Source of the DNA: the human T2T-CHM13v2.0 reference genome, Homo sapiens
Assembly (NCBI RefSeq): GCF_009914755.1
Contig: NC_060929.1
Strand: one strand, 5' to 3'
Length of the DNA: 64,000 nt
Below the pieces are notes generated by a model. It was given only the letters and a program-made list of their open reading frames with translations, was not told the DNA's origin and made no database searches. The translations under genes and the position numbers were made by a program. Below, one piece after another: positions 1,875-63,533 of the stretch. Each line of letters opens with the position of its first letter. The first letter of the stretch is position 1.

Positions 1875-2235
<361 letters not shown>

Positions 2236-2510
2236 TTATTTTCAGAGTATTTGATAAAACACTTGTTTCCCTGTGAGTTAGAGACGTTTTTCTCAGACAC
2301 TGAAGTTTTCTAATGTGCAACTTCATAAAATATCTCATTTTTACTGTAAATAGTTTCTTTATTGTTGTGAAATGTGAACTTTGCAATTCTGTGAGGAAGA
2401 CTGAATTCTGAAATGCCCCCTGCATTTCCCACCCCTCAGAGACTCACCCTGTGTCTGCCCCTCCCTTGGGTGTGGGCAGAACCACGAATTGATGAGCCCG
2501 CCCAAATCCC

Positions 2511-2586
2511 TGATTAGATTAGGGATATCCTGAACCAATAGCTGCTAAGGGCTGGGTCTAATTCAATCATCTGAGCTCTTTATAAG
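2511..2586 (+). promoter_or_regulatory. TAF11L promoter cassette: two DUX4-type motifs, CCAAT, TATA-like
   Basis: TGATTAGATTA 2511-2521 (rc TAATCTAATCA), CCAAT ~2535, TAATTCAATCA 2559-2569, TTTATAAG 2579-2586; fits DUX4 consensus TAAYBBAATCA. Confidence 0.75.
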
Positions 2587-2940
2587 GGAGGACTGAACCT
2601 CCCTGAGATTACATTCCCCCGTGGGAGATTCCCCAGCACTGGCTGTGCAGACCTAGGGAGCCTCACAGCCCAGACCTGGGCAACACTTGTAGGAGCTGAG
2701 AGCATCCTCACAGCAGCAGGCAGAACAAACAAGTGGGCCTGGGGCTCACAACCCTAAGGCATTGAATTCTGCCACCAACACGAATGAGATTGAAGACAGA
2801 CCCTTCTCACGTGAAGGTAATGACCACACAGCCAGACCCATCCTGGAGGTCCGTCATGTGACTCTGAGCAGGAGGCAGTCACTTGGCCTAGCAGTACTTC
2901 TGACCTGTGAGCTGGTGTTTGTTTTAAATATCCAAAATTG

Positions 2941-3133
2941 GTGAGAATTTATTCTGCATTGATCTAAAACTAATATACTCTCCATCCACAAGTTTCTTCA
3001 CATTGTGGAAGTGAGAACATTCAGTGTGTGTGTTTGCGTGTGGGAAGGGGAGGCAGGGGGCTGTGTCCAGTTATGGTTAAACTGGCACAGCAGAAACACA
3101 GCAGCTCAACTCTTTGAAAGGTTCTCATTGCAG
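2941..3133 (+). other. Candidate 5'UTR intron of TAF11L
   Basis: Donor-like TTG|GTGAGA at 2941 and acceptor-like TTCTCATTGCAG|AT at 3133; GTGAGA and the AG are retained in the other three + strand copies; no transcript evidence. Confidence 0.4.
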
Positions 3134-3208
3134 ATCCATAATCGAACCACCCCAGCCAGAACTTCTGCCTGTACAGCTGCTGTCACGGAGCAGACTTGAA
3201 TCTCACCC

Positions 3209-3802
3209 ATGGAGACAGGCAGGCAAAGAGGTGCGTCTGCTGAGATGTTCGCCATGCCCCAAGGTCTGAAGGGCAGCAACAAGGATGGAATCCCTGAGGA
3301 CCTAGATGGGAACTTGGAAGAACCCAGGGATCAGGAAAGTGAGCTCAGAAGTCAGGATGTCATGGACCTCACAGAAGGTGACAATGAAGCATCAGCCTCA
3401 GCTCCTCCTGCAGCCAAAAGACAGAAAACAGATACCAAGGGGAAGAAGGAGAGGAAGCCCACCGTGGATGCAGAGGAGGCTCAGATGACAACCCTGCTGT
3501 ATGCCATGTCTGAGGAGCAGCTATCCCGCTACGAAGTGTGTCGCCGGTCAGCTTTCCCAAAAGCACGCATTGCAGCTCTGATGCAGTCTATCACTGGCAG
3601 ATCGGTGTCTGAGAACACCGCCATTGCCATGGCTGGAATAGCTAAGGTCTTGGTTGGAGAGGTGGTGGAAGAGGCCCTGGACGTGTGCGAGATGTGGGGA
3701 GAAACGCCCCCGCTGCAGCCCAAGCATTTAAGGGAGGCCGTTCGCAGGTTAAAGCCCAAGGGCCTCTTCCCCAACAGCAACTATAAAAAAATCATGTTCT
3801 AA
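3209..3802 (+). CDS. TAF11L12: TAF11-like protein (197 aa), uninterrupted retrogene ORF
   Basis: TAF11 histone-fold signature [18 protein letters not shown]...[43 protein letters not shown]; family call firm, paralog number inferred from order relative to H3Y1. Confidence 0.85.
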
Positions 3803-4053
3803 GCCCAAGGCCAGAGGGAAGGGTCTGTTTGTGCAGGAATAAGTATCGCATTCATCTTCCAATGACAGGACTGCATTTGCTGGAGCTTCCTTATCTCAGT
3901 CCACCCTGGATTCACCCACAATCTTAGTGTCTGAAACTGTGAAGTTGACCTTACCTAGGTGAAGACAGCAGATTGTTTCACAGTAGCCTTGGCTAAATGT
4001 TTGGGACTCCAGGGGCATATTGAGGCATTTTTCTCTGTCTTTCTAGTTGGAAG

Positions 4054-4316
4054 AATAAAGGTGCCTGGGCCTTGAGCATCCTGTGGACAGGTAGCTGCAT
4101 TTGGAGAGGGAAACCCTTTCCAGGAGATTTGTACGGTTTCATTCTGAAGCCTGGTGTTGCTGTGTCTTACCTTGTATGCTGATGTCTGGGTTTCAGTAAG
4201 CGAAGCCTCCAGAAATGTTTCCCAATTGTTGTCCTCCTCTGATTTTCAATGCTCATATGTATTTGTTTTAGTCATCACAAAAGCAGTTAAACTGTTTTCC
4301 AAACTGCAGAAATAAA
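4054..4316 (+). terminator. Candidate poly(A) signals of TAF11L copy
   Basis: AATAAA at 4054 and 4311 (latter followed by T-rich tract); another at 4804. Confidence 0.45.
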
Positions 4317-5726
4317 AATATAATCACAAAGAATTTTTTTTTCTCCATGTTGACTCTTCCATTCCTGCCTACTTTGCTTACGTCAGCAAGTGGCCCTGTA
4401 GTTTAATCATAATGCAATACAGTATAGGTGCATCGTGTAAGACTAGAGAGAAACCAATTCCAAAACCACCTTTCCTCAAGCCTCCATTTGTAATGATCAT
4501 ATGGGCAGTTCCAAAGACACAGACAGAGCCAATTGATACTGCATGTTCGCTACACATGGTTATTTTACCAGTGCTTCCGGAGACACTGAAATTTAGTTCC
4601 AAACATTCCTTTAGAGGAGTCTTGATTTTATTCATTCTACCAATGAGCCACTCAGGAAATCAAACCTGAGTACAGAGACATTGGAGAAGTCGTTAAAGTA
4701 TTGGACCAAGTAGGTTCATCATGAGTGACAAAGTTATTTCACACTCTACTTGTACATACTCTGCTTTACCTTTATGATGGAAAAGAGTAATTTTTCATTA
4801 TAGAATAAAGACCTGAGAGTTATTATAGAATCACTGTGACCCTTCCAAGCACAGCTCACCAATATCCACGGTGCTGTTTCTGTCTGTTTACCTTTGCCAT
4901 GTGTCCCCTGAATCACAGAGTGTAAGCAAAAAGTATCAAAAAGACCCCATAGTTCAGCTCTAATATTGAATGGAGAATAATATTTACTCTTTCTTCCTGA
5001 AGCCAAAGATACCCCCATAAAATATAGTTTTATTTCCTCATACACTCAGCTTTTGCTCTGAAAATAGGACTTATTGTACATAGAATCTGCCTTTGGGTAT
5101 CACACAAATTTCTAAACTTTACCAAGTATGGGGAAATTCTGTGTCATACCTCCATATTCTGACATGGTTTAGCTTTCCTTTTATTTCACCAACTTTCTTG
5201 TAAAGGCATCTAACAAGTTAGACCATTGCGTCTGAGAGACACAAGGAGGGTACAGGTTCTTGGAAGAACTGATGGAGATGGGAGGGCTCTCTCAGGAATT
5301 AAAGTGCTGGAGCAACCAAAACAAGTAAGATCCAAGAGACTTAATATCTCCCAGTCTTTAGATTGCTCTCAGCTCATTCCTTTTCCATGGCACTGAGGAG
5401 TCATGGAAGCTGTATTTTGTCAGATGTTACAGGTCTAGCACTTTCTGAACAGTAGAGGAAAAGAGAACCTGGCCCAAGCAGCCTGAGGTGGAGAGAAGCA
5501 TCTGTAGAGAGTAGTGCTATGGTGATTCCACACACAAGCCTATAACATTTCTCTGGCCTCTCATGGAACTCAATATTTTGAATGGGGTCTGAGTAAAGCT
5601 GAACTGCTGAAGACAGAAACAAGTTCCCATCAAGGTCTCAGAGGTCAGGTCAGGAGCAGGAACACAGTGTTGTTTTCTCAGAGAGGAAAATTGGATTAGC
5701 TGAGAAGGTTCAGCGTCCTTACAGAT

Positions 5727-6428
5727 TCTTTTTTTTCTTTTTTACTTTATGTTATGGGATACATGTGCAGAATGTGCAGGTTTGTAACAAAGCTTTACAT
5801 GTTCCCTAGTGGTTTGCTGCACCAATCAACCCATCATCTAGGCTTTAAGCTCCGCATGCATTGGGATTTTTCCTAATGCTCTCCTTTCCCTTGCCTCCCA
5901 CCCCTTGACAGGCCACGTTGTGTGATGTTCCCCTTTCTGTGTCCATGTGTTCTCATTGATCAACTCCCACTTATGAGTGAGAACATATGGTGTTTGGTTT
6001 TCTGTTCCTGTATTAGTTTGCTGAGAATGATGGTTTCCAGTGTCATCCATGTCACCGCAAAGAACACGAACTCATTCTTTTTTATGGCTGAATAGTATTC
6101 CCTGGTGTATATATGCCACATGGTCATTATCCAGTCTATCATTGATGGGCATTTGGGTTGGTTCCAAGTCTTTGCTATTGTAAACTGTGCTGCAATGTAT
6201 CATGTGTATGTGTCTTTATAGTAGAATGATTTATAATCCTTTGGGTATATACACAGTAATGAGATGGCTGGGTCCAATGGTATTTCTGGTTCTAGATCCT
6301 TGAGGAATCACCACACTGTCTTCCACAATGGTTGAACTAATTTACACTCTCACAGACATTGTAAAAGTGTTTCTATATCTCCACAGCCTTGCCAACATCT
6401 GTTGTTTTCTGACTTTTTAATAATCACA
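5727..6428 (-). mobile_element. 5'-truncated L1PA 3' end
   Basis: poly(T) then gggatacatgtgcagaatgtgcaggtttg; minus ORFs give L1 ORF2 C-terminus-like WHIYTREYYSAIKKNEF. Confidence 0.9.
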
Positions 6429-6999
6429 TACTAAATGTTCTCAATATATAGTATCATATAGTCACTGCTCTCAGGAAAGAAATCTGTAGAAAGTGGTACC
6501 TTTCCAGGAGAAATCTTTGACAGCTTTCATGGCTGATTGTATTACATGTTAATGACAATGAATTTTTTCCTGGAGCTTCATCACTATTCTTAAAGTCTAT
6601 CTCATAATGTGCATTTGGAGACTGCATAGAAAAATGTGGTCTCTGATTGGTGCTGGTAAAGTGGTGACAAGATACCTAACAAATAAAGTGACTGTACTTG
6701 ACTATTTTCTATCATTTTCTATTTTGGGATAAGCTTAACATCCTCACTGCCTACCTTTGCCCCCACAAAATGCCTAAATAAAGTTTAAGTAGGCTAGCTC
6801 CACTATTCCAAGCACATATTATCTAGGGTCTAATCTTTAGAAGTATAAAGTACAAAGCTTACAAGTACAACTACACTAAAATTTGTACCCAAACTAGAAA
6901 GGCTTAAATGATCAACTGATGGATTTTTGTTTCCTATGGAAGAAGGTACAAAGCAGAGCACTAATATACATATATAGGGGAGAAGAGGCCAGGGCTTTT

Positions 7000-7331
7000 A
7001 TGGATGGCACAGAGCTAGGTGTCTTCAAAGAGGTGCAACAGGTAAGCCTCACTGGGCTCCTGCAGGTCGCCAATGGTAGCGCTTGGAAGCGCAGGACGAG
7101 GATGATGGCCTGGGAGATCTTGCGCACCAGGCGCTGGAAGGGCAGCTTGAGGAGTAACAGCTGCATGGACTTCTGGTACTTTCTGATTTCGCGCATTGTC
7201 AGGCCTGTAGCGGTGAGGCTTCTTGATCCCTCCTGTAGGCCGCGCCCTTTTGCTGGCGGCTTTAGTGGCCAGGGTCTTTGTGGTGCCTGCCAGGCGGTGG
7301 CTTTGCTGGCTGTTGGCTTGGTGCATGCAGT
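7000..7331 (-). pseudogene. H3.Y-like pseudogene, 3' truncated
   Basis: [24 protein letters not shown] and [21 protein letters not shown] in different frames; ATG replaced by ACT, ~8 nt deletion, cut after CAIH-equivalent codons. Confidence 0.9.
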
Positions 7332-7663
7332 GACCTGGGGCTGTGGTCTCTCTCCTGTCCTTGGGCTGAGCCAGGTTAACTGGAGGCAGCGCTGGTTTCA
7401 GACTGCAATGATGGTGGGGCTGTGGACAAAAATCAGAGAGTCTGGGAGTTGAGATTCATGCAAAAGACTCTTCAGACACTTAACCCCTTCCAAACCAGCC
7501 CCAGACTTACCAGCTCGCAAGTGTGTGGGTCAGAGGTCCTGCTGCTCGGTCTCCCGGGGGTCCTGGGCTTCCTTGGTCTACACATCAGCTGTGGTAAATC
7601 TCCCTCCCCCGAGGCAGCCTGGCTCTGGCTGGACATCTGTGTAGTCTCAGCCAAGTCCAGCCT

Positions 7664-7770
7664 ATTATAAGGGGCTCAGATGATTGCATTAGACCCACGC
7701 AGCTACCTTCCATTGCTCTCACTGCTTCGCCAGACCCTCAACCTCATCAGGGTTGTGAAAACACAATCAA
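7664..7770 (-). promoter_or_regulatory. H3.Y-type promoter cassette
   Basis: ttataag ~7665 and TGATTGCATTA 7681-7691 (rc TAATGCAATCA); homologous to 48070-48175. Confidence 0.6.
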
Positions 7771-8549
7771 GTCCTGGGTTCTGCATGCAGCCCTGGAAGG
7801 GCTGAACCTCTGGACTGTGCCTCATGGGAGAGATGATAGGTGAGAGTTAGCTAGAATCTAGGTGCCAAAGAGATCCCAAAAGTTTACATTTCACGATCAT
7901 CATGGAAGTTACAATGAAAAAGACATTTCAATACAGTTGCACATTAGATGACTTCCGTGACTGCCGCAAAACACCAAGGGTGCCATCGTGAGGTGTCTCT
8001 CAGGTTCTCTGAGGATGAGTTGAAACCGGGAGGGATGGATGGAAAATCAAAAAGGTCACTCTTCTATTAGGGATGCTCCGGGGGACAGGTTTTCTCCCCC
8101 AAAGTGATATTCGTGGAAATTTGGGGGTAGCCTTTGGGGGAAGCTGAGACTTTTTGATCAAACGGTCATATATGCCTGTCACTGAGGCATCCTGGCTCCT
8201 TTTTTTACCTTGACGCCAGGGCTGAGCCTTGTTTCCATTGCCCATTTTGGAAATGGCATGAGGCCCAGTGAAGGCCCTGAGTTCACTGCACTGCTGAACC
8301 CAGGTCACAGCTGCTACCTTCATACTTCTGGCTCCATGAGAACAAGTAAAGCAAACAAAAACAAACAAACAATCAAACAATACACATACAAAAGGCCCCT
8401 ATTTTGATACACTATTAACAGGCTTCTCTGATACTTGTAGTAGAAATTGAATGCCCTTCTATGCAATGCACAGACCATGCCCAGAACAGGAAATCCCATG
8501 ATAATCAATACTCACAAAATAAGTTCACATTTTAAAAAAAGTTTTAAAA

Positions 8550-10460
8550 GGAGAGCTACTTTTGTAGAAAACCTTAAGTTCACAGCAAAATCAGGCAGAA
8601 GGAGCAGAGGTTTCCCTTATCCCCTTTCCCCACATATGCATAGCCCCCTTGACTATCAACTTTCTGCTCCAGAGTAGTATGTTGGCTACAGTCATTCAAC
8701 CTGCATGGACACATCACTCTGACTCCAAGACCATAGCTCTCCTTAGGGACTTACTTGGGTGTTGTACATTCTATGGACTCGAGCAAAGGTGTAATTACAT
8801 GTATCCACCGTTATTGCATTCTGTGGACTAGTTTCACTTCTGTACAAATGCACTGTGTCCCATCTCTGCACTCCCCCTTGACCCTCGGTCTCTTGCAACC
8901 ACTCAACTATTGATTTATTTCTTTTTATTTAAAATACACACATCTCATTGTATATATTTCTTATGTACATAATGCTGTTATAAAGTATGAACACATTGTC
9001 TAATATCTAAATTAGGTAACTGACAGCCATTAGCTGACATACGTATTATTGTGGTGAGAACATTTCACATCCAGGCTAATAGCACTTCTCAAGAATATGA
9101 TCTATTGTTAAATTATAGTCACCGTGTTGTAATATAGTCCTTGAGCTTATTCTCCCTATATAACTGAAATGCTGTGTATTTCGACAAATGTCTTCTCAAT
9201 CCTTCACCCACAGCCACCCAGCCCCTGACAACCAGAATTCTTCTTTTTGACATCTATTAGATTAACTTTGTGAGATTCCACATATCATTGAGATGACGTG
9301 GTATTTGTCTTCCTACACCTGGCTTATTTCACGTAGCATGATGTTCTCCAGGTGCACCCATGTGTCACAAATGACAAGATGTCCTTCTTTAAGACTGCAT
9401 AGTATTCCATTGTGCATGTATATCAGATTTACCCCATCCTGTCATCCAGTTTTGGACATTTAGGTGAATTCCATATCTTAGCTATTGTGACTTAACATGG
9501 GAGTGCAGATATCTCTTCAATACTGATTTAATTTCCTTTTGGTATATACCTGGCAGTGTGGGATTGCTGGATCATATGGTAGCTCTATTCTTTCCATTTT
9601 TGGAGGAATGTCCATCCTGCTTTCTATAATGGCTGTCCTAATTTACGTTCCCATGAATAGTGCAAGGGTTCCCTTTCCTCCACATCCTCATCAACAAGTG
9701 TTGTCTTTTGACTTTTTGATCATAGACATCCTAATGAGTGTGAGGTGGTATCTTCTTTCAGTTTTAACTTACATTTCTCTGATGATTAGCGATGTTGAGC
9801 ATATATACGTATATACATACCAGTTGGCCACTGTATGTCTTCTTTTCAGAAAGGTATGTCATTTAGGTCCTTTGCCCGGTTTTTAAATTGTGTTTTTTCT
9901 TGCTATTGAGTCATTTGAGTTCCTAGAGTATTTTGGACAGTAATTAATCCCTTATATGATGTAGTGTTTGCAAATATTTTCTCTCATTTTGATTTTGTCT
10001 CTTCATGATGTTTATTGTCTTGTCGGCTTTGCAGATTTTTTTTTTTTAAGTTGGATGCAATCCATCTGTCTATTCACCCTTTTGTTGTCTGTGCTTTTGG
10101 GTCATATACCAAAAGTTTTTGGCTTAACCAGAGTCAATGAGGATGTCCCCTGTTTTCTTCTAGTTGGTTTATACTTTCTAGTTTTTAATTTATTTGGATT
10201 TATTCTTGTGTACAGTAAGATATAGGGGTCCAATTTCATTTTTCTTCATGTGGCTACCAGGTTTCCCTATCGCCATTGATGGAAGAAACTGTGGTTTTGT
10301 GGTGGTGAGTTGTTGGCACCCTTTTAAACTATCAGTTGGCTGTATATGGATGGACTGATTTCTAGACTCTCTGCTCTGATCCGGTGGCTTAAGTGTCTGT
10401 TTTTATGCCAGTGTTATGCCATTTTGGTTCCTACAGATTGATAGCATACTTTGAAGATAG
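8550..10460 (-). mobile_element. Old L1M-type fragments
   Basis: Degenerate antisense L1 3' sequence (aagttcacagcaaaa..., ggattgctggatcatatggtagctctatt); paralogs at 13870-15530, 31870-33770, 57985-59930. Confidence 0.75.
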
Positions 10461-11509
10461 AAAACCATGAAATCTTTTTGTTTTCTCTTTGTATTTGCCA
10501 CTGACATCATCACTCAGAGAGATTTCCAAGGAGATACTGATTCTTTGCTTTTTCAGTTTTTTTCTCATTGTGAAGATAGAGTGATGACATTGAATTTTCT
10601 TAGGAGTCACCCCAAAAACTGGAACTCCATTTTATTTTTGCTATATATTTATTATCATTTATCTTATATATATGGTATTTGGCAATTACATGTCAGTACA
10701 ATTACAAATAGGCTTCAATTACACAAAATATTTAATGCTCAAATCCTACAGTGAGAGGACATTATATTTTTAATACAGTAATCTGCAAAATAAACTAAAA
10801 ATAAAACATCATGTAGTATAAGGATATATTGTTATTGTATGCATTTCTGTTTTAGACATGCATGAAACACACATCAATATGTTCTTCCAGCCATTAATAT
10901 AGGTTACATTGGGACCAGCTCTTTGGAGGCGAATGTGTGGAAATGAATGAAGATATTTGACAGGGTCTCTGGGGTTTGTGTTTCTCTGTGTAGTTTTTCA
11001 TGCAGCTCCTACAGGGTTCTACCCTCCTAACATCATGAAAGATCACTCCATGACATAAAACAATCTTGGTCCGAATGTGAAAAAACCCATTTTAGAGGAA
11101 AAACTAATTTTTAATTTCATTTTTATTTTTGCAAGCTGAAAAACAGTTGGTTGATTTCCCAGGAAAAGTTATGGAAAAGTATTAAATGTTTACAAGGTAA
11201 CTATTCCAGTGCTCTTAGAAAGCCCGGGACCTTCTGGATAGAGTATTGTAAGGGAAGACTTACTGTTTGTTTTATCTCCTTAAAATCACATTTGAGCAAA
11301 AACATCCAAAGTCATAGCAACTTCAGGATTCAGTGTGAATCCACCATAGTCTCTTAAAAGGATGTCTTTTTTCTCTCTGAAAACAGCTCCCCGTCCACAG
11401 GATGCCCAAGGCCCATGCTCCTTTCTTCCTCCAACTAGGAAGACCCAGAAAAGCACCCACTCATGCATGGACCTCAGAGAACCAAATATAATGACAATGA
11501 TTGTTAGTT

Positions 11510-11800
11510 TTTTGAGACAGAGTCTTACTCTGTTGGCCAGGTGGAAGGGCAGTGATGTCAATTTGGCTCCCTTTAACTTCCACCTCCACAGCTCAATCAG
11601 TCCTTCTACCTCAGCCTCCAAGTAGGTGAAACCATAGACACCAGCAACCGCACCCAGCTAATTTTTTTTTTTTTTTTTTGGAGAGGAGGTTTTGCCAACA
11701 TTCCTGGCCTGGACAGGAACTTCTGAGCTCAATCGATCTGCCGCCCTTGGCCACCCAAAATGTTGGTTTTACAGAAATGAGTCATTGTGCCTGGTCTGAG
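11510..11800 (-). mobile_element. Diverged AluJ-type element
   Basis: ttttgagacagagtcttactctg...cattgtgcctggtc; paralogs at 16400-16690, 34810-35085. Confidence 0.8.
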
Positions 11801-11874
11801 ATATAAACATGATTGAAAGGGATTATGAAACTGGCTGCTGCCTTCATCTGGGTGAGACCAATATCTTCCCAGAG

Positions 11875-12125
11875 GAAGATGATTTTTTTAGTTTATTTTG
11901 GTACTGGATGTTGGGGAAGCAGGACCTGGGTTGTCCCATGTGAAAGGCCTTTTTCCAGTGCTTGGGTGTCACAGGGGCATTTTCCCACATCTCACACATG
12001 GCCAGGGCTTCTCCTACCACCTCCCCGACAAAGTTCTGGGTCATTACAGCCATGTGCATGGCAGTAACCTGGTTCTAGGACACTGACCTGCACCTGACGG
12101 AATGCATCAGACTTCTACAGGGTGC
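11875..12125 (-). pseudogene. TAF11-like C-terminal remnant
   Basis: [24 protein letters not shown] resembles TAF11[25 protein letters not shown]. Confidence 0.85.
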
Positions 12126-12719
12126 CTCTCTCCCTTTCCCACCACAAACACGCCCACACTGGTAATTCTGCCAACCCTAATGTGAAGTGACTTATGGATA
12201 CAGAGTCTATTCATACAGAATCTATTCATATTGTAGAAAGTAGAGATCAATGTATGTTCATAGCAAACTAGGAGGAACAGCCAAGGTGACAGGGAACATT
12301 GCAAACATGGAACTGTATATGGAGAAAGCCAAAGTGTGGATCTCCTCTACTGTTTGATCAATCACAGGAGACATTATCGGTTTGACGCCTATAAGTTTCT
12401 TTGGTTTTTAATAAAATTAAGGAACCAGTTTTTTTCAGAATTGTTCTTGATTTGAACTAGTGAAACGTGTTCACTCAGACATTTCCACTTGACATGAATG
12501 CATTAACTCCTCAATGTAGATTGAAAATTTACAATTAAAAGAAAATAGAAAAACAGTCTCTACCTGTGATTTTTGCTTCGGTTTCTGTTCTCAATCGTAT
12601 GCTTAGCTACTTTTAGACCCCGTGCAGGAAATGATACTGATACTGAACACAACTTCTAACATCATATCTATCATTAACAGAGAGAAGAGGAAAAACACAA
12701 CAGGACGCAAAGGAAACCA

Positions 12720-13158
12720 TTTACAATGCAAGATTTCCCAGGAGGGCTCTTCAGCACCCTCTCCACGGAGGCTGTGGGCCAGCTGCACGTCTCTTGGCAT
12801 AATTGGGACGCTTCTGGCATGGATGACATACAGGTTGGTGTCTTCAAAGAGGCGCACCAGGTAGGCCTCATTGGTCCCCTGAAAGCACCAACGGCCACGC
12901 TCTGGAAGCCCAGGTCCCGGCTGATGGTCCGGGGGATCTCGCGCACCAGGCGCTGGAAGGTTAGCTTGTGCTGGAGCAGCTGAGTGGACTTGTGGTACTT
13001 CTGATTTCACTCAGCGCCATGGGGCCAGGTCTGCAGCTGTGAGACTTCTTGATCCATCCTCTAGAGGGCGCCCTTTTGCGGACGGCTTTTGTGGTCCGGG
13101 GCTTCCTGGGAGCCTGCCAGGTGGTGGCTTTGCAGGCGGTCTGTTTGATGGGCCCCAT
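12720..13158 (-). pseudogene. H3.Y/H3.X-like pseudogene (frameshifted, promoter deleted)
   Basis: MGPIKQTACKATTWQAPRKP... and [28 protein letters not shown] in different frames. Confidence 0.9.
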
Positions 13159-13869
13159 GGGGGCGGGCAGTAGCCTCTCCCCTCTCCTTGGGCTGAGCCT
13201 GGCCCACTGCAGGCGGCGCTGGAGTCAGAGAGCAAGGGCACTGGGGCTGTGGACAGGATTCAGAGAGCCCGTGAGTTGAAATCCATGTACAAGATGCTCC
13301 CACACACTGAGCCCCTTCCAACCCACCCCAGACTTACCAGCAGGAGAAGATGCAAACCGAAATGGTCACTCCTCTACCAGGGATGCTCTGGGAGCATTTT
13401 TCTCTCCCAAAGTGACATTCATGGAAATCTGCGCGTAGCCTTCGCGGGAAGCTGAGGCTTTTTGTTCTAATGGTCATATGTGCCTGTCACTGAAGCCCTC
13501 CCTGGGTCTTTTTTTACCTTGATGGAGGGGGTGAGCCTTCTTTCCATTGCCTGCTTTGGAAATGCCATGAAGCCCCGCGAAGCCAGCCCTGAGTTCACTG
13601 AGCTGCTGAACCGAGGACTCAGCAGCTACCTTCATACTATTGGCTTCATGAGTAAAAGCAAAGCAGAGTAAAGAAAAGAAACAAACAAATAAACAACACA
13701 CCAACCAAAGGCTCCTATTTCAATACACGGTGCACAGGCTTCTCTGACAACTTATAGTATAAATTTAATGCCCATGCATGCAATGCATATACCACACACA
13801 GAACAGGAATTTCCAGGAAAATCAATACTCACAAAATAAGTTCACATTTCTCTTTAAAAATAGAGCTCA

Positions 13870-15530
13870 TTTTGTAACAAACCTTTAGGTTCTTGCCAAA
13901 ATTGGGCAGAAGGAACATAGGTCCCCAATATCCTCTCACCACACATATGCATAGCCCCCTTCACTATGAACTTTCTGCCCCAGAGTGGTACGTTGTCTAC
14001 AACCTTTCAACCTACATGGACACATCACTGTGACTCCAACTCCATCGCTCTCCTTAGGATTCACTTGAGTGTTGTATATTCCATGGATTCAAGCAAAGGC
14101 ATAATTGCATGTATCCACCATTATTGTATTCTATGGACTAGTTTCACTTCCATGCAATCGTACTCTGTCCAGTCTCTGCACTTCTGCTTCACTCTCGGTC
14201 CCTTGCAACCACTCAACTATTGACTTGTGTATTCATATTTAAAGTGTGGACACATCTTGTTGTATATATTTCTTATGTACAAAATGCTGTTTTAAAGTAT
14301 GTACACATTGTCTAATATCTAAATCTAGGTAGTTGACATTCATTACCTCACATATATATTACTGTGGTGAGAACACTGCACATCCATGTTAATGAGATTT
14401 TTCAAAAATACGATCTATTGTTAACTATAGTCATCATGCTATACAATAATCCTTGAACTTATTCCCCCTATGTAACTGAAATGTGTATTTTGACCAATGT
14501 CTTCTCAAATTCCCCACCGCCTGTCACCACAGCACCAAACAACCACTTTTCTTCTCTTTTACATCCATCAGACTACCTTTGTGACATTCTACATAGCATT
14601 GAGATTATGTGGTATTTGTGTTCCTACCTATGCCTGACTTATTTCACTTAGCATGATGTTCTCCAGGTGCACCCATGTGTCACAAATGACAAGATTTCCT
14701 TCTTCTTTAAGGCTGTATGGTATTCCCTTGTGTATATATGTCAGATTTTCCTCCTCCTGTTATCTGCTTTTGGATATTTAGGTGGATACCCTATCTTAGG
14801 TCTTGTAAGTAGTGCTGCAATCAATGTGGGAGTGCAGATATCTCTTCAATAGACCGATTTCATTTCCTTTTGATATAGACCTCCCAGTGTGGGCTTGCTG
14901 GATCGTATGGTAGCTGTATTTGTTTAGTTTGTGGAGGAAGGTCCATACTGTTTTCTATAATGGCTGTCCTAATTTACATGGCGAGGAAGAATGCAAGGGC
15001 TCCCTTTCCTCCACATCCTCGTCGACAAGTTTTGTCCTTTGATGTTTTGATCATAGCCATTCTAATGAACATAAGGTGTTATCTTCTTTCAGTTTTTATT
15101 TGCATTTCTCTGGAGATTAGTGATGTTGAGTATATATATATACTAGTAACAGCAGGTATATATGGATATATACCTGGTGGCCACTTTCATGGCTTCTCTT
15201 CAGAAATGTCTATTATTTAGTTCCTTTGCCCAGTTTTTAAATTGTATTGTTTCTTGGTTTCGAGTCCTTAGAGTTCCTAGTATATTTTGGACAGTAAATA
15301 GTTAATTCCTTATTGAATGTAGGGTTTGCAAATATTTTCTCTCTTTATGATTCTGTCTCTTCATGGTGTTGATTGTTTTGTCGGCTCTGCAGATTTTTTG
15401 TTTTTTCATTTGGATGCAATCCATTTATGTATTTTCCCTCTTGCTGTCTCTGATTTTGGGACATATTCCAAAAATCATTGGGTTAACCATTGTCAATGAG
15501 GACATCCCCTGTTTTCTTCTAGTAGGTTAT
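13870..15530 (-). mobile_element. Old L1M-type fragments
   Basis: Paralog of 8550-10460. Confidence 0.7.
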
Positions 15531-16399
15531 ACATTTGTTACCATTTATCTTATATTCAGGGTATTGGATCAATTACATGTCAGTATAATTACAAATAATG
15601 TTCAATTACACAAAATATTTAATGGTCAAGTCCTACACTGAGAGGGAATTTTATTTCTAATTTTTGTGTTCTTATGGAATAATTTGGAAAATCAAGTAAC
15701 AATTGAATGTTATCTAGTATGAAAATGTATTGTCATCATACGTATTTCTGTTTTAGAGAAGCACAAAACAGAAATAAACATGTTATTTCAGCCATAAACC
15801 TAGTTTACATTGGGGCCATTCCTTGGAGGTGAAGGTGTGGAAAGGAGTGCCCAGATGAGACGGGGTATCTGGGGTCTGTGCTTCTCTTAGTTTTCCATGT
15901 AGATCCCAGAGTGTGTTACCATTCTGACATCATCAAACATCATTCCCCGACATGAAACAGTCTTGGTAGGAAAGTAAAAAGAGTCATTTTAGAGAAGAAT
16001 AGTTTTTTAATTTCATTTTTATTTTTACACGCTGGGAAAGAGGTGCTTGATTCCCCAGGAAAAGTTATGGAAAAGTACTAAATGTTTCCAAGGGCAGCTA
16101 CTCCAGTACTCTTAGAAAGCCCAGCACCTTCAGGATAGAATATTGTAAGGGAAGACTTTGTTGTGTCTCCTTAAAATCACATATGAGCAAAAATCCTGTT
16201 ATATCCACTTAAGGATTCGGTATGAAACCACCATAGTCTCTTAAAAGGGTTTCTTTCTTCTCTCTGAAGACAGCTCCACATCCAAAGGATGCTCAAGGCC
16301 CATGTACCTTTGTTCTTCCAGCTAGGAAGCCCTAGAACAATGCCTGCTCATACATGGACCTCAGAGACCCAAACATGATGATAATGATTGTTATTTTCT

Positions 16400-16690
16400 T
16401 GAGCCAGGGTCTCACTCTGTCAGCCAGGTAGGAGGGCAGTGGTTCCATCTCGGCTCACTATAATCTCCACTTCTGGAGCTCAAGAGATCCTCCTACCTCA
16501 GCCTCTGGAGTAGCTGAAACAGCAGGCACCAACCACCACATTTAGCTTTTTTTTTTTCCATTTTAATTGTAGAGGGGAAGTTTTGTCATGTTGCCCAGGC
16601 TGGTCTGGAACTCCTGAGTTCAAGTGATCCACCAACCCCGGTCTCCCAAAATGCTCTCTGATCATAGAAATAAGCCATTGTGCCCCATCT
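16400..16690 (-). mobile_element. Diverged AluJ-type element
   Basis: gagccagggtctcactctgt...ttgcccaggctggtctggaactcctgag. Confidence 0.8.
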
Positions 16691-16899
16691 GAGATACAAA
16701 TATGATTGGATGACATTATTAATCAGGCTGCTGCCTTCATCTGGGTGAGACTAATGTAAGATGTAAGAAAGATGTTAAGTCATGGTTAAGTCCAGGATGG
16801 GCTGAGATACTGAAGCTCCAGCCTACAGAGGGCTCTGTCATAGAAAGACTGGAACCAGTACTTTTTCCTCTAAGATCAGGCCTTTCTTTCTAGACTGGG

Positions 16900-17150
16900 G
16901 CCCAGAGGAAGATGACTTTGTTTTGTAGTAGGTGTTTGGGAAGTGGTCACTGGGCTGTCCCCTGAGAAAGGTCTCCCTCCAATGCTTGGGCTGCAGTGGG
17001 GCATGTCTCCCCACATCTCAAACATAAGCAGGGCCTCTCCTACCACTTCCCTAACCAAGACCTGTATCATTCCAGCCATGGCCAGGGCTATGACCACGTT
17101 GCAAGAAGCTGAGCTTCTGGGGATGGACTGCATCGGACTTCTCACAGGTG
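16900..17150 (-). pseudogene. TAF11-like C-terminal remnant
   Basis: MQSI...NVVIALAMAGMIQVLVREVVGEALLMFEMWGDMP. Confidence 0.85.
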
Positions 17151-17733
17151 CCTCTCTCCCTTTCCCACCCACAAACAGACCCACACTGGTTCTTGCCTCC
17201 CATAATGTGAAATGACTTGTGTATAGAGACTCTATTCACATTTTAGAAAGTAGAGTGTAATGTATGTTCATAGCAAACAAACACACAGGAATAGCTCAGG
17301 AGACAGGGAACATTGAGAACACGGAGCTGCATATAGGAAAAGTCAAAGTGTGGATCGCATCTGCTGTTTGATCAAATGCAGGAGACATTATCTATTTGCC
17401 ACCAATAAGAAATTTATTTGGTTTTCAATAATACTAATGAGCACATTTTTTCACAATTGTTCTTGATTTGAACTGTTGAAAGGCGTTCAGTGAGAAATTC
17501 CCAGTTGACATGAATGTATTAGACCCTCAATGTAGATGGACAGTTTACAAACAAAAGAAAACAGAAACACTCATACCCTTTATATCTGCCTGTGTTGTTA
17601 CTCCTAATCATGTGCAGGGCTGCTTTTGGACCCCATGAGGGACATAAAACCAAAAATGAAGAGAACTGCTAATATCAGAACTATGATTAACACAAAGACG
17701 TTGAAAAACACAACCAAATGGAAACGAAGCCGT

Positions 17734-18176
17734 CTAGAGTGCAGCGTTTCCCAGGAGCGTGGGCTCCCCAGCACCCTCTCTGCCGAGTTGGCAGGCCAGC
17801 TGCATGTCTCTGGGCATAACTGTGACACGCCTGGCATGGATAACACATAGGCTGATGTCTTTAAAGAGGGGGACCAGGTAGGCCTCGCTGTTTCCCTGAA
17901 ATCGCCAGTGGCCGCACATTGGAAGCGCAGGTCTGGGTTGATGGCCTGGGCAATCTCGTGCTCCAGGCGCTGGAAGGTCAGCTTGTGCAGAAGCAGCTGT
18001 GTGGACTTCTGGTACCTCCTGGTTTTGTGCAGCGCCAGGGTGCCAAGCCTGTGGCGGTGAGGCTTCTTGATCCCTCGTGTAGCCAGGACCCTCTTGCCGG
18101 TGACTTTGGTGGCCAGGGGCTTCCTGGGGGCCTGCCAGGCGGTGGCTTTGTGGTCAGTCTGCCTAATGCGAGCCAT
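17734..18176 (-). pseudogene. H3.X-like pseudogene with one frameshift region
   Basis: [24 protein letters not shown]...[10 protein letters not shown] then, in another frame, [10 protein letters not shown]...[27 protein letters not shown] (H3.X-type tail). Confidence 0.9.
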
Positions 18177-18507: not shown

Positions 18508-18593
18508 TTTATAGGAGGCTTGGATGATTGGATTAGACCCACCCAGCTACTTTTCACTGCATTCTGTGCTTCAGCAGATGCTTAACCTAATCA
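18508..18593 (-). promoter_or_regulatory. H3.Y-type promoter with two consensus DUX4-type motifs
   Basis: tttatag ~18508 (rc CTATAAA), TGATTGGATTA 18525-18535, TAACCTAATCA 18583-18593. Confidence 0.7.
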
Positions 18594-23600: not shown

Positions 23601-23676
23601 TGATTAGATTAGGGATATCCTGAACCAATGGCTGCTAAGGGCTGGGTCTAATTCAATCATCTGAGCCCTTTATAAG
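23601..23676 (+). promoter_or_regulatory. TAF11L promoter cassette
   Basis: TGATTAGATTA 23601-23611, CCAAT, TAATTCAATCA 23649-23659, TTTATAAG 23669-23676. Confidence 0.75.
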
Positions 23677-35671: not shown

Positions 35672-39517
<3,846 letters not shown>

Positions 39518-40782: not shown

Positions 40783-40858
40783 TGATTAGATTAGGGATAC
40801 CCTGAACCAATGGACATTAAGTGCTGGGCCTGATCCAATCATCTGAGCTCTTTATAAG
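40783..40858 (+). promoter_or_regulatory. TAF11L promoter cassette (variant)
   Basis: TGATTAGATTA 40783-40793, CCAAT, TGATCCAATCA 40831-40841, TTTATAAG 40851-40858. Confidence 0.7.
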
Positions 40859-46302: not shown

Positions 46303-46636
<334 letters not shown>

Positions 46637-46850
46637 AGTGGCCCTTAAACTTGAACTTGCAGACAGCCTGCCTCAAATGGTTGGGCTGCAGCGGGGGCGT
46701 GTCTCCCCACGTCTCATACACTTCCAAGGCCTCTCCTACTACCTCCCCTACCAAGACCTGGGTCACTCCAGTCATGGCCATGGATGCGACCATATTCTAG
46801 GACGCTGAACTGCCAGAGATGGACAGTATCAAACTTCTAAAGGCTGCCTC
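46637..46850 (-). pseudogene. TAF11-like C-terminal remnant downstream of H3Y1, interrupted by Alus
   Basis: [49 protein letters not shown]; remainder resumes near 46020. Confidence 0.9.
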
Positions 46851-47091
46851 TTTCCCTTTCCTACCCAGGAACACACCCACACTGCCTCCCATAATGTGAA
46901 GTGACTTGTGGATACAGTCTATTCGTATTTTAGAAAGTGGAGTTGAATGTGTGTTCATAGCAAACTAGTAGAAACAGCCCATGACACAGGGAACATTGCA
47001 AACACAGAGCTGCATACAGGAAAAGTCAAAGTGTGGATCTCATCTACTGATCAAGTTAAACAAACATCACTGAGTTGCCATCAGGAAGAGA

Positions 47092-47097
47092 TTTATT
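47092..47097 (-). terminator. Candidate poly(A) signal of H3Y1
   Basis: tttatt = AATAAA on minus, ~230 nt past the stop; kept at 17413 in a paralog; no histone stem-loop seen. Confidence 0.55.
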
Positions 47098-47326
47098 TGG
47101 TTTGAAGTAGTCTAAACACAGGCATAGTCCAGTGAAAATGAACAGGTTTCTTGAAAATTGATGTAGAGCTGAAACTCGCTCACTGAAACATTCCCACCTG
47201 ACACTAGTGCCTTATGACCCTCAAGGTAGATTAGACATTAACAAACAAAAGCACACAGAAACACCACCAAGACCTGATTTCTGCCTGTTTCCACTCCCAA
47301 TCCTATGCTTAGCTACCTTTGGGCTC

Positions 47327-47737
47327 TTAAGGACCCTCTCTGCGGAGGCGGCGGGCCAGCTGCATGTCTCGGGGCATAATTGTGACGCGCCTGGCATGGA
47401 TGGCACACAGGTTGGTGTCTTCAAAGAGTTGCACCAGGTAGGCCTCGCTGGCCTCCTGCAGGGCGCCAATGGCCGCACTCTGGAAGCGCAGGTCCGGGCT
47501 GATGGCCTGGGCGATCTCGCGCACCAGGCGCTGGAAGGGCAGCTTGCGCAGGAGCAGCTGCGTGGACTTCTGGTACTTTCTGATTTCCCGCAGCGCCAGG
47601 GTGCCAGGCTTGTAGCGGTGAGGCTTCTTGATCCCTCCTGTAGGCGGCGCCCTTTTTCCGGCTGCTTTGGTGGCCAGGGGCTTCCTGGGGGCCTGCCAGG
47701 CGGTGGCTTTGCGGGCGGTCTGCTTGGTGCGCGCCAT
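47327..47737 (-). CDS. H3Y1: Histone H3.Y (primate-specific H3.3-derived variant)
   Basis: 136-aa [38 protein letters not shown]...SAAIG...RRLRREGP matches H3.Y as I know it. Confidence 0.97.
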
Positions 47738-47847
47738 GTCGCGGGGCCTTAGCCTCTCCCCTGTCCTTGGGCTGAGCCTGGCCGGCTGCAGGCGGTGCTG
47801 GCGTCAGAGAGCGAGGGCAGTGGTGCTGTGGACAGGATTCAGAGAGC

Positions 47848-47917
47848 CTGTGAGTTGAGATCCATGCGCATGACTCTCCCACACACTTAGCCCCTGCCAA
47901 CCCAGCCCCACACTTAC
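47848..47917 (-). other. Candidate 70-nt 5'UTR intron
   Basis: CTG|GTAAGT donor (47917-47912) and CTCACAG| acceptor (47848). Confidence 0.45.
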
Positions 47918-48069: not shown

Positions 48070-48175
48070 CTTATAAGGAGCTCAGATGATTGGATTAGAC
48101 CCACCCAGCTCCCTTCCATTGTACTTCCTGCTTCACTAGATCCTCAACCTAATCAGGGCTGTGAAAACCCAATCA
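48070..48175 (-). promoter_or_regulatory. H3Y1 promoter: TATA-like box and DUX4-type motifs
   Basis: CTTATAAG ~48070, TGATTGGATTA 48087-48097 (rc TAATCCAATCA), near matches CAACCTAATCA 48145 and AAACCCAATCA 48165; H3.X/H3.Y are established DUX4 targets. Confidence 0.8.
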
Positions 48176-63083: not shown

Positions 63084-63111
63084 CTTATAATTCGCTGCGA
63101 TGATTGCATTA
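63084..63111 (-). promoter_or_regulatory. H3.Y-type promoter remnant
   Basis: cttataa ~63084, TGATTGCATTA 63101-63111; homology to other copies ends near 63150. Confidence 0.55.
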
Positions 63112-63533
63112 GAGCCACCTGGCTAGCTTCCATTGCACTCATTGCTTCACGAGATTTTTAATTTAATGAGAACGAGCTGTCCCCATCCCATCCTACAAAG
63201 TAACTGGTCAGGGCTGAGTGCAGTCCTGGGGGTAAGGGGATGACATGCCCAGGTGTCAGCTCAAAGGATCTCTGCATCATCCTGAGGTGGGAGGCAGGGC
63301 AAGGAGCACCAATGAGGTTCTCCTCCCTCCCCCACCACCCCCCACAGTAAAAGCTTATCAAGTCTATGGGTAGTGCCACACCAAAGGGTGGTGTTACCTT
63401 CCATTGTATTTACGGGTTCACAGATTTGTAACCTAATCAAGGTATGAAAAACTAAGTTCATGGGTTCCTCCAACACTCAAAAGAGGGGCAGATATCTGGA
63501 GTATGCATTATGGGATGGATCATAGGTGGTGGT

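What the first reader, a model, noticed from the sequence alone, without database searches (positions are those of the whole stretch)
2505..2660. TAF11L and H3.Y promoters are homologous and share a DUX4-motif/TATA core
Seen: TAF11L GGGTCTAATTCAATCATCTGAGCTCTTTATAAG (2554-2586) vs H3Y1 GGGTCTAATCCAATCATCTGAGCTCCTTATAAG (rc ~48070-48102), two mismatches; both have an upstream CCCTGATTAG; the 40.8 kb copy continues GATCACAGAGATCTCCAGGCAGA like H3Y1 GACCACAGAGATCTCCAGTCAGA. Seven cassettes occur (2.5, 7.7, 18.5, 23.6, 40.8, 48.1, 63.1 kb), with the motif core apparently better kept than its flanks. Inference: a co-regulated DUX4 (cleavage-stage/FSHD/germline) module producing a variant TFIID histone-fold subunit and a variant histone.
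Basis: partly seen in the sequence, partly recalled or inferred. Interest (0 to 1): 0.75.

Follow-up and report, generated by a model that had tools for sequence, protein, structure and literature searches.

The report
Shared DUX4 promoter of TAF11L and H3.Y
The TAF11-like genes and the H3.Y-type histone genes on human chromosome 5p15.1 use copies of the same promoter with DUX4 binding sites; their switching-on by DUX4 is already published, so the finding is correct but mostly known.

Summary
The 33-base core occurs at all seven named places. It sits in about 400 bases of collinear homology between TAF11L-type and H3-type units. Across the two families, the four best-kept blocks are the proximal DUX4 site, an inverted distal DUX4 site, the TATA box and the start site. 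The annotated starts of TAF11L12 and H3Y1 fall on the same alignment column, 30 and 27 nt after TATAA.

The DUX4 reading is supported, but it is already in print. DUX4 ChIP and induction are published for H3.X/Y/Z (PMC6886682) and for TAF11L11/12 (PMC12776069, PMC8120133). KLF18 ChIP peaks lie on these promoters (PMC13224869).

What I add:
- **Origin of the H3 units.** Each is a TAF11L-type unit carrying an H3.3-type retrocopy (about 47831-46941), followed by a TAF11L C-terminal remnant. The promoter is therefore shared by descent.
- **Locus-wide motif state.** The cassette occurs 54 times, only at chr5:17.43-17.67 Mb. All 42 macrosatellite monomers carry a derived A>G change in the proximal DUX4 site; the 12 non-array copies keep A. 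This matches published weaker, more KLF18-dependent expression of the array copies.

I could not find the promoter homology stated in print, nor test whether the promoter derives from an LTR.

The parts
2232..2720 (+). TAF11L12 promoter and 5' UTR module, homologous to the H3-type units
   Evidence: blastn: 2232-2586 matches 48435-48070 (61.5%, 374 bases). 7-way alignment A1.
2468..2476 (+). GT box GGGTGTGGG, a candidate KLF/SP site; also present in TAF11L13 and as GGGTGTGTG in H3Y1
   Evidence: The published KLF18 ChIP peak at hg38 17610209-17610359 maps to about window 2428-2578 (PMC13224869 Table S3). Binding to this particular box is inferred.
2496..2503 (+). GC box GCCCGCCC, found in the full-length TAF11L-type cassettes only
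   Evidence: present in TAF11L12 and TAF11L13; absent from LOC391768 and from the 4 H3-type cassettes.
2511..2521 (-). Distal DUX4 site TAATCTAATCA in inverted orientation, at -100 to -90
   Evidence: This is the best-binding 'CT' form, and activity is orientation-independent (PMC4730607, Results read). Second-best conserved block (0.86).
2559..2569 (+). Proximal DUX4 site TAATTCAATCA, at -52 to -42
   Evidence: Best conserved block across the two families (0.92).
2581..2586 (+). TATA box (TATAAG)
   Evidence: The RefSeq start at 2611 is 30 nt downstream.
2611..2816 (+). TAF11L12 exon 1 (non-coding); its start aligns with the H3Y1 start
   Evidence: Hub annotation; alignment A1.
2622..2977 (+). 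MLT1E3 (MaLR) LTR fragment, mapped from a published hg38 annotation; it begins 11 nt after the start site
   Evidence: PMC8120133 supplement file 2 gives hg38 chr5:17610403-17610758. I mapped it with a +219 offset taken from the two start-site coordinates (inferred mapping).
3209..3802 (+). TAF11L12 coding sequence (TAFII28 histone-fold family)
   Evidence: Pfam PF04719, E = 3.7e-32.
23644..23676 (+). TAF11L13 cassette core; both DUX4 sites are exact (23601-23611 minus strand, 23649-23659 plus strand)
40826..40858 (+). LOC391768 cassette core; proximal site is TGATCCAATCA, distal site is exact; it keeps the 24 bases after the start that the H3 units also have
48070..48102 (-). H3Y1 cassette core: proximal DUX4 site 48087-48097, TATAA 48071-48075, start at 48048
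   Evidence: hub annotation.
48145..48155 (+). H3Y1 distal site CAACCTAATCA, one mismatch to the consensus
18508..18540 (-). H3P21 (published as H3.Z) cassette core; both DUX4 sites are exact (18525-18535 minus strand, 18583-18593 plus strand)
7664..7696 (-). H3P19 cassette core; proximal site TAATGCAATCA (G at position 5), distal site degenerate
63084..63116 (-). H3P22 cassette core; proximal site TAATGCAATCA; the upstream half is displaced to 63397-63529
46941..47831 (-). H3.3-type retrocopy holding the H3Y1 coding sequence (47327-47737) and its UTRs
   Evidence: 4 of 4 dispersed intronless H3 copies (L049-L052) align from 47831-47818. They end at 46941 (2 of 4), 46867 or 47076. Pfam PF00125, E = 4.6e-43.
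46636..46934 (-). Remnant of the TAF11L-type unit behind H3Y1: a piece matching TAF11L12 intron 2963-3051, then the C-terminal part of the TAF11L reading frame
   Evidence: homology starts exactly at 46934 in 3 of 3 TAF11L-type units hit; tblastn: aa 138-185 at 46784-46641.

Best explanation
The finding is one inherited promoter module, present 54 times in the 5p15.1 TAF11-like/H3.Y locus and nowhere else in this genome. It is a TATA-type core promoter with two DUX4 sites. The proximal site lies at -52/-42. The distal site lies at -100/-90 and is inverted. The TAF11L-type copies also have GT, GC and CCAAT boxes. DUX4 binds the two sites and activates transcription about 30 nt after the TATA box; KLF18, itself DUX4-induced, binds the same region. 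Behind this module lie two different intronless reading frames: TAF11L, and an H3.3-type retrocopy that became H3.X/Y/Z. The H3 units most likely arose when an H3.3 mRNA copy landed in a TAF11L-type unit, between its first exon and the TAF11L reading frame. The 5' half of that reading frame was then lost, and the unit was duplicated. The two gene families are therefore co-regulated because they share a promoter by descent. Shown here: the homology, the motif and TATA positions, the coincident start sites, the nested unit structure and the locus-wide motif states. Taken from papers: DUX4 and KLF18 binding, and induction. Inferred: the direction of the insertion, and that the motifs are what DUX4 uses at this locus.
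For: - **Homology.** About 400 collinear bases are shared by the 7 window cassettes. The four best-conserved blocks are the two DUX4 sites, the TATA box and the start site. The annotated starts coincide in the alignment (plus hub table).
- **Locus-wide distribution.** There are 54 cassettes in chr5:17428001-17672000. A loose pattern (DUX4 site, spacer, TATAA) finds 54 of those 54 plus 9 unrelated AT-rich matches in the whole genome, against 3 for the reversed control.
- **Nested units.** Behind H3Y1, 46934-46853 matches TAF11L12 intron 2963-3051, 46831-46636 matches coding sequence 3579-3768, and 46013-45601 matches the 3' UTR. TAF11L C-terminal fragments lie behind 6 H3-type units or remnants in the window.
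- **Retrocopy edges.** Four of 4 dispersed intronless H3 copies match H3Y1, UTRs included, from 47831-47818 to 46941 in 2 of 4. In 3 of 3 TAF11L-type units the homology resumes exactly at 46934.
- **Published binding and induction.** See PMC6886682, PMC12776069, PMC8120133 and PMC13224869.
- **Site biochemistry.** TAATCTAATCA is the best site, orientation does not matter, half-sites are inactive, and two sites give about 20 times the activity of one (PMC4730607).
Against: - No binding or reporter data were produced here. Motif necessity at this promoter is untested.
- **Direction of the H3 insertion.** No poly(A) tail is visible. The candidate target-site duplication of about 20 bases is not significant (alignment scores 12-18, shuffle maxima 18-20). 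About 140 bases between the shared 5' UTR and the retrocopy (47973-47832) have no significant match in TAF11L-type units.
- **Divergence.** Outside the conserved blocks, TAF11L-type and H3-type units are only 58-66% identical. That is more than expected for families reported only from primates, and I cannot explain it.
- **H3.X.** It has a non-consensus proximal site (G at position 5) and a degenerate distal site, yet it is strongly induced when DUX4 is overexpressed (about 17,600 normalised counts; PMC13224869 Table S2). An exact consensus match is therefore not required.
Confidence: 0.8

Rival explanations
1. The shared promoter is the unannotated 5' (U3) part of the MLT1E3 MaLR LTR that lies in each unit. 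On this reading the locus is one more case of a DUX4-responsive MaLR LTR promoter. This concerns the origin of the host module and is compatible with the best explanation.
For: PMC8120133 lists TAF11L12 and TAF11L14 as DUX4-induced LTR fusion transcripts with MLT1E3 (supplement file 2). Mapped to the window, the MLT1E3 fragment starts 11 nt after the TAF11L12 start site, directly behind the cassette. PMC3018141 and PMC5687341 report an MLT1E3 in every 3.4 kb monomer. PMC4730607 notes that many DUX4 peaks lie in MaLR elements.
Against: The published annotation stops short of the TATA box and both DUX4 sites. The cassette architecture has no dispersed copies. My genome search for dispersed relatives of the cassette found only locus copies. 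That result is uninformative, because the annotated MLT1E3 piece itself also finds only locus copies. No repeat library was available.
Confidence: 0.35
2. An H3.Y gene with this promoter came first. A TAF11 retrocopy then landed downstream of it, and the TAF11L units arose later by deletion of the H3 segment.
For: Both unit types share the promoter and the TAF11L 3' part, so either order yields the same two structures. No clear target-site duplication or poly(A) tail marks the H3 segment.
Against: The gap between the unit types ends within 7 bases of the 3' end of the H3 mRNA-like segment: 46941 against 46934, identical in 3 of 3 TAF11L-type units. A deletion that removes a retrocopy so exactly is unlikely. 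The H3 units hold only the C-terminal part of the TAF11L frame, and all share a breakpoint near TAF11L12 3577-3629. That pattern is what a secondary loss in a single ancestral H3 unit would give.
Confidence: 0.12
3. The high identity of the core reflects short gene-conversion tracts between paralogous promoters, not selection on DUX4 and TATA function.
For: The locus is a recombining, variable-copy array (PMC3018141). Paralogues are not independent samples, so the conservation statistics overstate the evidence.
Against: Conservation comes as four separate short islands that coincide with two DUX4 sites, the TATA box and the start site. Between them the sequence is about 25-50% identical, which is not one contiguous tract. 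The copies differ at the tolerated motif positions (T, C or G at position 5) while keeping the rest. Function is independently documented by published ChIP and induction data.
Confidence: 0.1
4. The similarity is chance or convergence: two unrelated promoters each acquired a DUX4 site and a TATA box.
For: None beyond the fact that DUX4 sites near TATA boxes occur in other target genes.
Against: There were 0 of 100 shuffles with any match to the 33-mer. About 400 bases are collinear, and unit homology continues downstream. The architecture is unique to this locus.
Confidence: 0.01

Closest known systems
Direct DUX4 target promoters with clustered sites (ZSCAN4, FRG2, TRIM43, LEUTX, KHDC1L)
   Same: They have one or more TAAT-N-N-AATCA sites close to the start site. 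Several sites act in synergy. They are induced in DUX4-expressing myoblasts, FSHD myotubes and cleavage-stage cells, and some are co-bound by KLF18 (PMC4730607, PMC13224869). TAF11L11/12 and H3Y1 are themselves on published target lists.
   Different: Here one promoter sequence is copied 54 times and drives two unrelated reading frames. The copies form a natural series of site variants.
MaLR/ERVL LTR promoters activated by DUX4 (LTR fusion transcripts)
   Same: TAF11L12 and TAF11L14 are listed as MLT1E3 fusion transcripts induced by DUX4 (PMC8120133 supplement). The first exon lies in the LTR fragment.
   Different: The annotated LTR fragment begins after the start site, and the DUX4 sites and TATA box lie upstream of it. 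The link to Young et al. 2013 is recalled; that paper was not read here.
D4Z4 macrosatellite carrying the DUX4 retrogene
   Same: It is a primate macrosatellite with a repeat unit of about 3.3-3.4 kb. Each unit holds an intronless reading frame, copy number is polymorphic, and expression is in germline and early embryo (PMC3018141, PMC5687341).
   Different: The TAF11-like array is a target of DUX4, not its source. Here the most strongly DUX4-induced copies in the published datasets I read are the diverged edge copies rather than the array monomers.
Retrogenes that gain expression by using a host promoter and 5' exon
   Same: Intronless TAF11-like and H3.3-like reading frames sit behind a non-coding first exon and a pre-existing promoter. 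General knowledge of retrocopy evolution (e.g. PMC4772013) was seen only as a search listing and not read.
   Different: Two different retrocopies appear to have used the same host promoter in turn, one nested in the unit of the other. I did not test the TAF11 parent-gene relationship.

Membership tests
Direct DUX4 target promoter | Match to the DUX4 consensus (TAAYYBAATCA) near the start site | tested here: met
   (10 matches, 0.69 expected). The proximal site is exact in 7 of 12 non-array cassettes. Both sites are exact in TAF11L12, TAF11L13, H3P21 and its distal twin.
Direct DUX4 target promoter | DUX4 occupancy in ChIP-seq or CUT&RUN | not testable with these tools
   Published: PMC6886682 for H3.X/Y/Z; PMC12776069 for its 63-gene list, which includes TAF11L11/12; PMC13224869 Table S3 marks TAF11L3, 4, 5, 7, 9, 10 and H3P18 as having a DUX4 peak by nearest-gene assignment.
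Direct DUX4 target promoter | DUX4-dependent induction of the transcript | not testable with these tools
   Published tables read: log2 fold changes of 8-16.
Direct DUX4 target promoter | Loss of induction when the sites are mutated | not tested
   I found no reporter study of this promoter (paper searches).
TATA-box core promoter | TATA element about 25-31 nt upstream of the mapped start | tested here: met
   TATAA at 2581 with start at 2611; TATAA beginning at 48075 with start at 48048; TAF11L11 +31 (starts from RefSeq).
Processed retrocopy (H3.Y-type genes) | Intronless and collinear with the parent mRNA, UTRs included | tested here: met
   4 of 4 dispersed intronless H3 copies share about 80-90 nt of 5' UTR and about 380 nt of 3' UTR with H3Y1. 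The parent gene itself was not aligned.
Processed retrocopy (H3.Y-type genes) | Poly(A) tail and target-site duplication | tested here: inconclusive
   No A-run at 46941-46934. The candidate duplication of about 20 bases is within the shuffle range.
TAF11 / TAFII28 histone-fold family | Pfam PF04719 above its gathering score | tested here: met
   TAF11L12 110.6 bits and TAF11L13 104.7 bits, cut-off 27.
Histone H3 | Pfam PF00125 over the full length | tested here: met
   H3Y1 146.8 bits, residues 8-132.
MaLR LTR-derived promoter | Start site and upstream elements lie inside an LTR of the family | not testable with these tools
   No repeat library was available. The published MLT1E3 annotation begins 11 nt after the start site. 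The control shows that the genome search cannot see old repeats.

The most novel reading that the evidence does not exclude
The locus holds a two-tier promoter series made by evolution. The edge copies (TAF11L2-like, L11, L12, L13, H3.Y, H3.Z) keep intact DUX4 sites and would be first-wave direct targets. The 42 tandem-array monomers all carry a derived A>G change at position 8 of the proximal site, and 29 of 42 also have a broken distal site. This change would make them weak, KLF18-dependent second-wave genes. It may also limit the dose of a TFIID-like subunit produced by, or the amount of DUX4 bound at, a copy-number-variable array. In addition, one host promoter would have been used in turn by two retrocopies (TAF11, then H3.3) whose products both act on transcription start regions.
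Probability: 0.35. Interest if true: 0.55.

Novelty: already known. Interest (0 to 1): 0.35.

Why it matters
DUX4 drives the first wave of human embryonic transcription and causes FSHD when it is expressed in muscle. H3.Y and the TAF11L genes are among its strongest targets. Showing that they share one promoter by descent explains their co-regulation without any special mechanism.

The 54 copies form a natural mutant series:
- both sites exact;
- one site exact;
- the A>G variant of the proximal site;
- G at position 5 of the proximal site.

This series can be read against copy-resolved expression and ChIP data to calibrate which DUX4 sites work in chromatin. The fixed A/G difference is also a practical marker. 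It separates reads from edge copies and array copies in a region where multi-mapping hides the signal, and where array length varies from about 10 to 98 units between people (PMC3018141).

Tried and rejected
- **Dispersed relatives of the cassette.** An own-genome DNA search found only locus copies (48 candidates, 40 scored). I do not use this as evidence, because the annotated MLT1E3 piece behaves the same way (51 candidates, 40 scored).
- **TAF11 parent gene.** A DNA search with 2600-4400 was saturated by 40 locus copies. The retrocopy origin of TAF11L therefore rests on its intronless reading frame only.
- **Target-site duplication around the H3 retrocopy.** Local alignments of 47990-47815 to three TAF11L-type units scored 12-18, against shuffle maxima of 18-20. 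BLAST found no TAF11L-type hit for the 5' junction. I report it as a weak lead at the expected collinear position.
- **LTR ends.** A look for LTR ends or duplications at 2180-2420 and 2880-3240 gave nothing decisive.
- **Paper searches.** The searches for retrogene wording and embryo wording were too loose, since any two terms sufficed. None of the 15 papers listed in each held TAF11L or H3.Y.
- **Structure and complex prediction.** Not used. No claim here depends on them.
- **Dating by divergence.** The Jukes-Cantor distances implied by 58-75% identity (my arithmetic, no call) are implausibly large for primate-only families, so I give no dates.

Full report
**1. Observation**

The 33-base string is at 2554-2586 on the plus strand. 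Its H3Y1 counterpart is at 48070-48102 on the minus strand, with two mismatches.
- With up to three mismatches there are 4 matches (2554, 23644, 40826, 48070) and none in 100 shuffles.
- The 10-mer CCCTGATTAG is present upstream, but it is not rarer than chance by itself (8 matches, 4.8 expected).

Its meaning comes from context. In TAF11L12, TAF11L13 and LOC391768 it is the first half of TGATTAGATTA. That is the reverse complement of TAATCTAATCA, a second DUX4 site in inverted orientation. The DUX4 consensus has 10 matches in the window against 0.69 expected. Eight of these lie in cassettes, and one more lies in the displaced upstream half of the H3P22 cassette.

**2. Extent and pattern of the homology**

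A seven-way alignment shows collinear similarity from about 280 bases upstream to about 110 bases downstream of the TATA box.

Outside a few blocks the two families are far apart. TAF11L12 against H3Y1 is 58% identical over 359 aligned columns, but 31/33 in the core (Fisher p = 1.9e-5). The region was chosen after the fact, and paralogues are not independent samples.

Scoring all 12 TAF11L-type by H3-type pairs, the best 11-column windows are:
- the proximal DUX4 site (0.92);
- the distal DUX4 site (0.86);
- the TATA box (0.78);
- the start-site region (0.77).

The mean is 0.40.

The RefSeq starts of TAF11L12 (2611) and H3Y1 (48048) fall on the same alignment column. They lie 30 and 27 nt after the first T of TATAA. 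TAF11L11 starts 31 nt after its TATAA (hub table).

**3. What lies behind the promoter**

Pfam places TAF11L12 and TAF11L13 in the TAFII28 family and H3Y1 in the core histone family.

The units share more than the promoter. Behind H3Y1, on its strand, come three matches to TAF11L12:
- a piece matching intron 2963-3051;
- a piece matching coding sequence 3579-3768;
- a piece matching the 3' UTR.

tblastn finds C-terminal TAF11L fragments (residues about 111-197) behind six H3-type units or remnants: H3P20, H3P21, 35.3 kb, 40.0 kb, H3Y1 and H3P22. All start near the same breakpoint.

The H3-specific segment looks like a processed copy. Dispersed intronless H3 copies on other chromosomes share its UTRs. 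Four of four fetched copies align from 47831-47818, ending at 46941 (two of four), 46867 or 47076. In three of three TAF11L-type units, homology to the H3Y1 unit resumes exactly at 46934.

The simplest reading is that an H3.3-type mRNA copy landed in a TAF11L-type unit, downstream of its promoter and first exon. Half of the TAF11L frame was lost afterwards. Wiedemann et al. had speculated that H3.X/Y derive from H3.3 although they are intronless (PMC2935562, passages). That paper does not mention TAF11.

Weak points:
- no poly(A) tail is visible;
- the candidate target-site duplication is not significant;
- about 140 bases before the retrocopy are unexplained.

**4. The whole locus**

The own assembly could be searched. 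All matches to the core and to the 401-base promoter lie in chr5:17.43-17.67 Mb.

After fetching chr5:17428001-17608000, I found 54 cassettes in 244 kb. A loose pattern (DUX4 site, 13-nt spacer, TATAA) finds those 54 plus 9 unrelated matches genome-wide, against 3 for the reversed control.

Forty-two cassettes are 3,434-base array monomers, 33 on the plus strand and 9 on the minus strand.
- In 42 of 42 the proximal site reads TAAT[C/G]CAGTCA, with G at position 8. None matches the consensus.
- The distal site is intact in 13 of 42.

The 12 non-array cassettes all have A at position 8, so G is the derived state.
- The proximal site is exact in 7 of 12: the distal-edge TAF11L copy at 17437018, TAF11L11, TAF11L12, TAF11L13, H3Y1, H3P21 and its twin at 17452009.
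- It reads TAATGCAATCA in four: the H3.X position 17431514, 17442146, H3P19 and H3P22.
- It reads TGATCCAATCA in LOC391768.

**5. What is published**

- *DUX4 binding and induction of the H3 genes.* DUX4 ChIP-seq binding near the starts of H3.X, H3.Y and H3.Z, and their induction, are in PMC6886682 (passages).
- *TAF11L11/12 and H3Y1 as top targets.* They are among the top ten of 63 ChIP-bound DUX4 targets in FSHD mutant myotubes. H3P21 (H3.Z) reaches 55-110 TPM, while H3Y2 reaches 0.3-0.9 TPM (PMC12776069, passages and Table S1).
- *Nanopore direct RNA reads after DUX4-fl expression* (three replicates; PMC8120133 supplement file 2). TAF11L11 gives 416/1004/883 reads and L12 gives 259/663/577. 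L14 gives 51/139/97, L13 gives 13/60/61 and L2 gives 9/20/26. None of the eight names L3-L10 occurs in that file.
- *MB135iDUX4 short-read data* (PMC13224869 Tables S2 and S7). All annotated copies are induced. L11-L14 give about 1,900-4,000 normalised counts, L2 about 690, and L3-L10 about 80-165. Multi-mapping must depress the array values.
- *KLF18 dependence in the same tables.* Loss of KLF18 lowers the array copies more: KO2 log2 changes are -0.97 to -2.9, against -0.55 to -0.91 for L11-L14. In the VNTR-deleted KLF18 line, 8 of 8 array copies fall (-0.71 to -1.35), while 5 of 5 edge copies do not (-0.03 to +0.77).
- *KLF18 ChIP peaks.* They lie on the TAF11L11, TAF11L12 and H3Y1 promoters (Table S3). 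The TAF11L12 peak maps to about window 2428-2578.
- *A point against a simple 'array copies are unbound' reading.* The same table marks TAF11L3, 4, 5, 7, 9 and 10 as having a nearby DUX4 peak and no KLF18 peak, by nearest-gene assignment.
- *A point against strict consensus dependence.* H3.X, with a non-consensus site, is strongly induced under overexpression (about 17,600 counts).
- *Site biochemistry* (PMC4730607, Results read in full). TAATCTAATCA is the best site. Orientation does not matter. Half-sites are inactive. Every position but the fifth is selected for the consensus. Two sites give about 20 times the activity of one.

**6. Mechanism**

- *Shown here:* the anatomy of the module and its distribution.
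- *From papers:* DUX4 and KLF18 occupy these promoters and DUX4 induces the genes.
- *Inferred:* DUX4 acts through the two sites mapped here. Their number and quality set the strength of each copy. The array's A>G change weakens direct DUX4 drive, so that the array copies lean on KLF18.

The GT and GC boxes are the same in array and edge TAF11L copies. The difference in KLF18 dependence therefore cannot come from gained KLF sites.

**7. LTR question**

PMC8120133 lists TAF11L12 and TAF11L14 as MLT1E3 fusion transcripts. Mapped to the window, the fragment covers about 2622-2977, so it starts 11 nt after the start site. It ends where the H3 retrocopy was inserted in the H3 units (the mapping is mine, from the offset between start coordinates).

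The promoter may or may not be an unannotated upstream part of that LTR. I could not test this. There is no repeat library, and the genome search cannot detect old repeats, as the control shows.

**8. Novelty**

Five papers in the library hold both TAF11 and H3.Y. I saw passages of four of them: PMC6886682, PMC12776069, PMC11216401 and PMC13224869. The listing showed only these four; the fifth hit appears to be the bioRxiv copy of PMC12776069. Thirty-three papers hold TAF11L (listing only) and fifteen hold TAF11 with DUX4 (listing).

In what I read, none states that the two promoters are homologous, that H3 units are nested in TAF11L-type units, or that the array monomers carry a mutated DUX4 site. 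Subscription papers, and the supplements I could not open (Table S1 and the figure PDFs of PMC13224869), may bear on this.

The central inference, a DUX4 co-regulated TAF11L/H3.Y module, is already known. The additions are details of a known system.

**9. Verdict**

Interest is modest (0.35), mainly for the natural series of promoter variants and the nested retrocopy history.

Noticed in passing
window 12744-13843 (H3P20): H3P20 has no promoter cassette. Homology to the H3Y1 unit jumps from 48482 to 47921, so about 560 bases including the DUX4 sites, TATA box and start site are deleted.
   Followed up: partly
window 63084-63529 (H3P22): The cassette is split. The proximal site and TATA box are at 63084-63116, but the upstream half with the distal site is displaced to 63397-63529 by about 230 inserted bases. 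A short stretch is present twice.
   Followed up: partly
window 25966-27267 (TAF11L14): The TAF11L14 unit starts at the equivalent of TAF11L12 position 2781 and has no cassette. Even so, published counts are as high as or higher than for TAF11L13. Read-through from TAF11L13, 2.4 kb upstream, or initiation in the MLT1E3 fragment would explain this.
   Followed up: no
window 35166-35693 and 39793-40553: Two truncated, inverted H3-unit remnants hold an H3 3' UTR plus a TAF11L C-terminal fragment, with no H3 coding part. The second abuts the LOC391768 promoter head to head, at about 40553-40577.
   Followed up: no
L031-L033 (chr5:17431514-17452009) compared with window 2554-18508: The distal flank of the array repeats part of the order and spacing of the window's first cassettes: a TAF11L copy, an H3P19-like copy 5.1 kb on, then an H3P21-like copy about 10 kb further. 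The macrosatellite is therefore bracketed by a direct segmental duplication.
   Followed up: no
window 47826-47917 (H3Y1 5' UTR): A consensus-like splice donor (GTAAGT at 47917) and acceptor (CACAG near 47826) bracket about 90 bases just before the retrocopy. RefSeq gives a single exon. This may be a retained or optional intron of the host module.
   Followed up: no
window 2232-4193 compared with 48435-45601: Outside the conserved islands, TAF11L-type and H3-type units are only 58-75% identical. This seems too diverged for families reported only from primates. It is unexplained: fast evolution, old origin or poor alignment.
   Followed up: no
L034-L048 (array monomers): Array monomers fall into a few haplotypes. 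The proximal site has C or G at position 5, the TATA flank reads TTTATAAG or TGTATAAG, and the distal site is intact or doubly mutated. These occur in runs along the array and record its expansion history.
   Followed up: no
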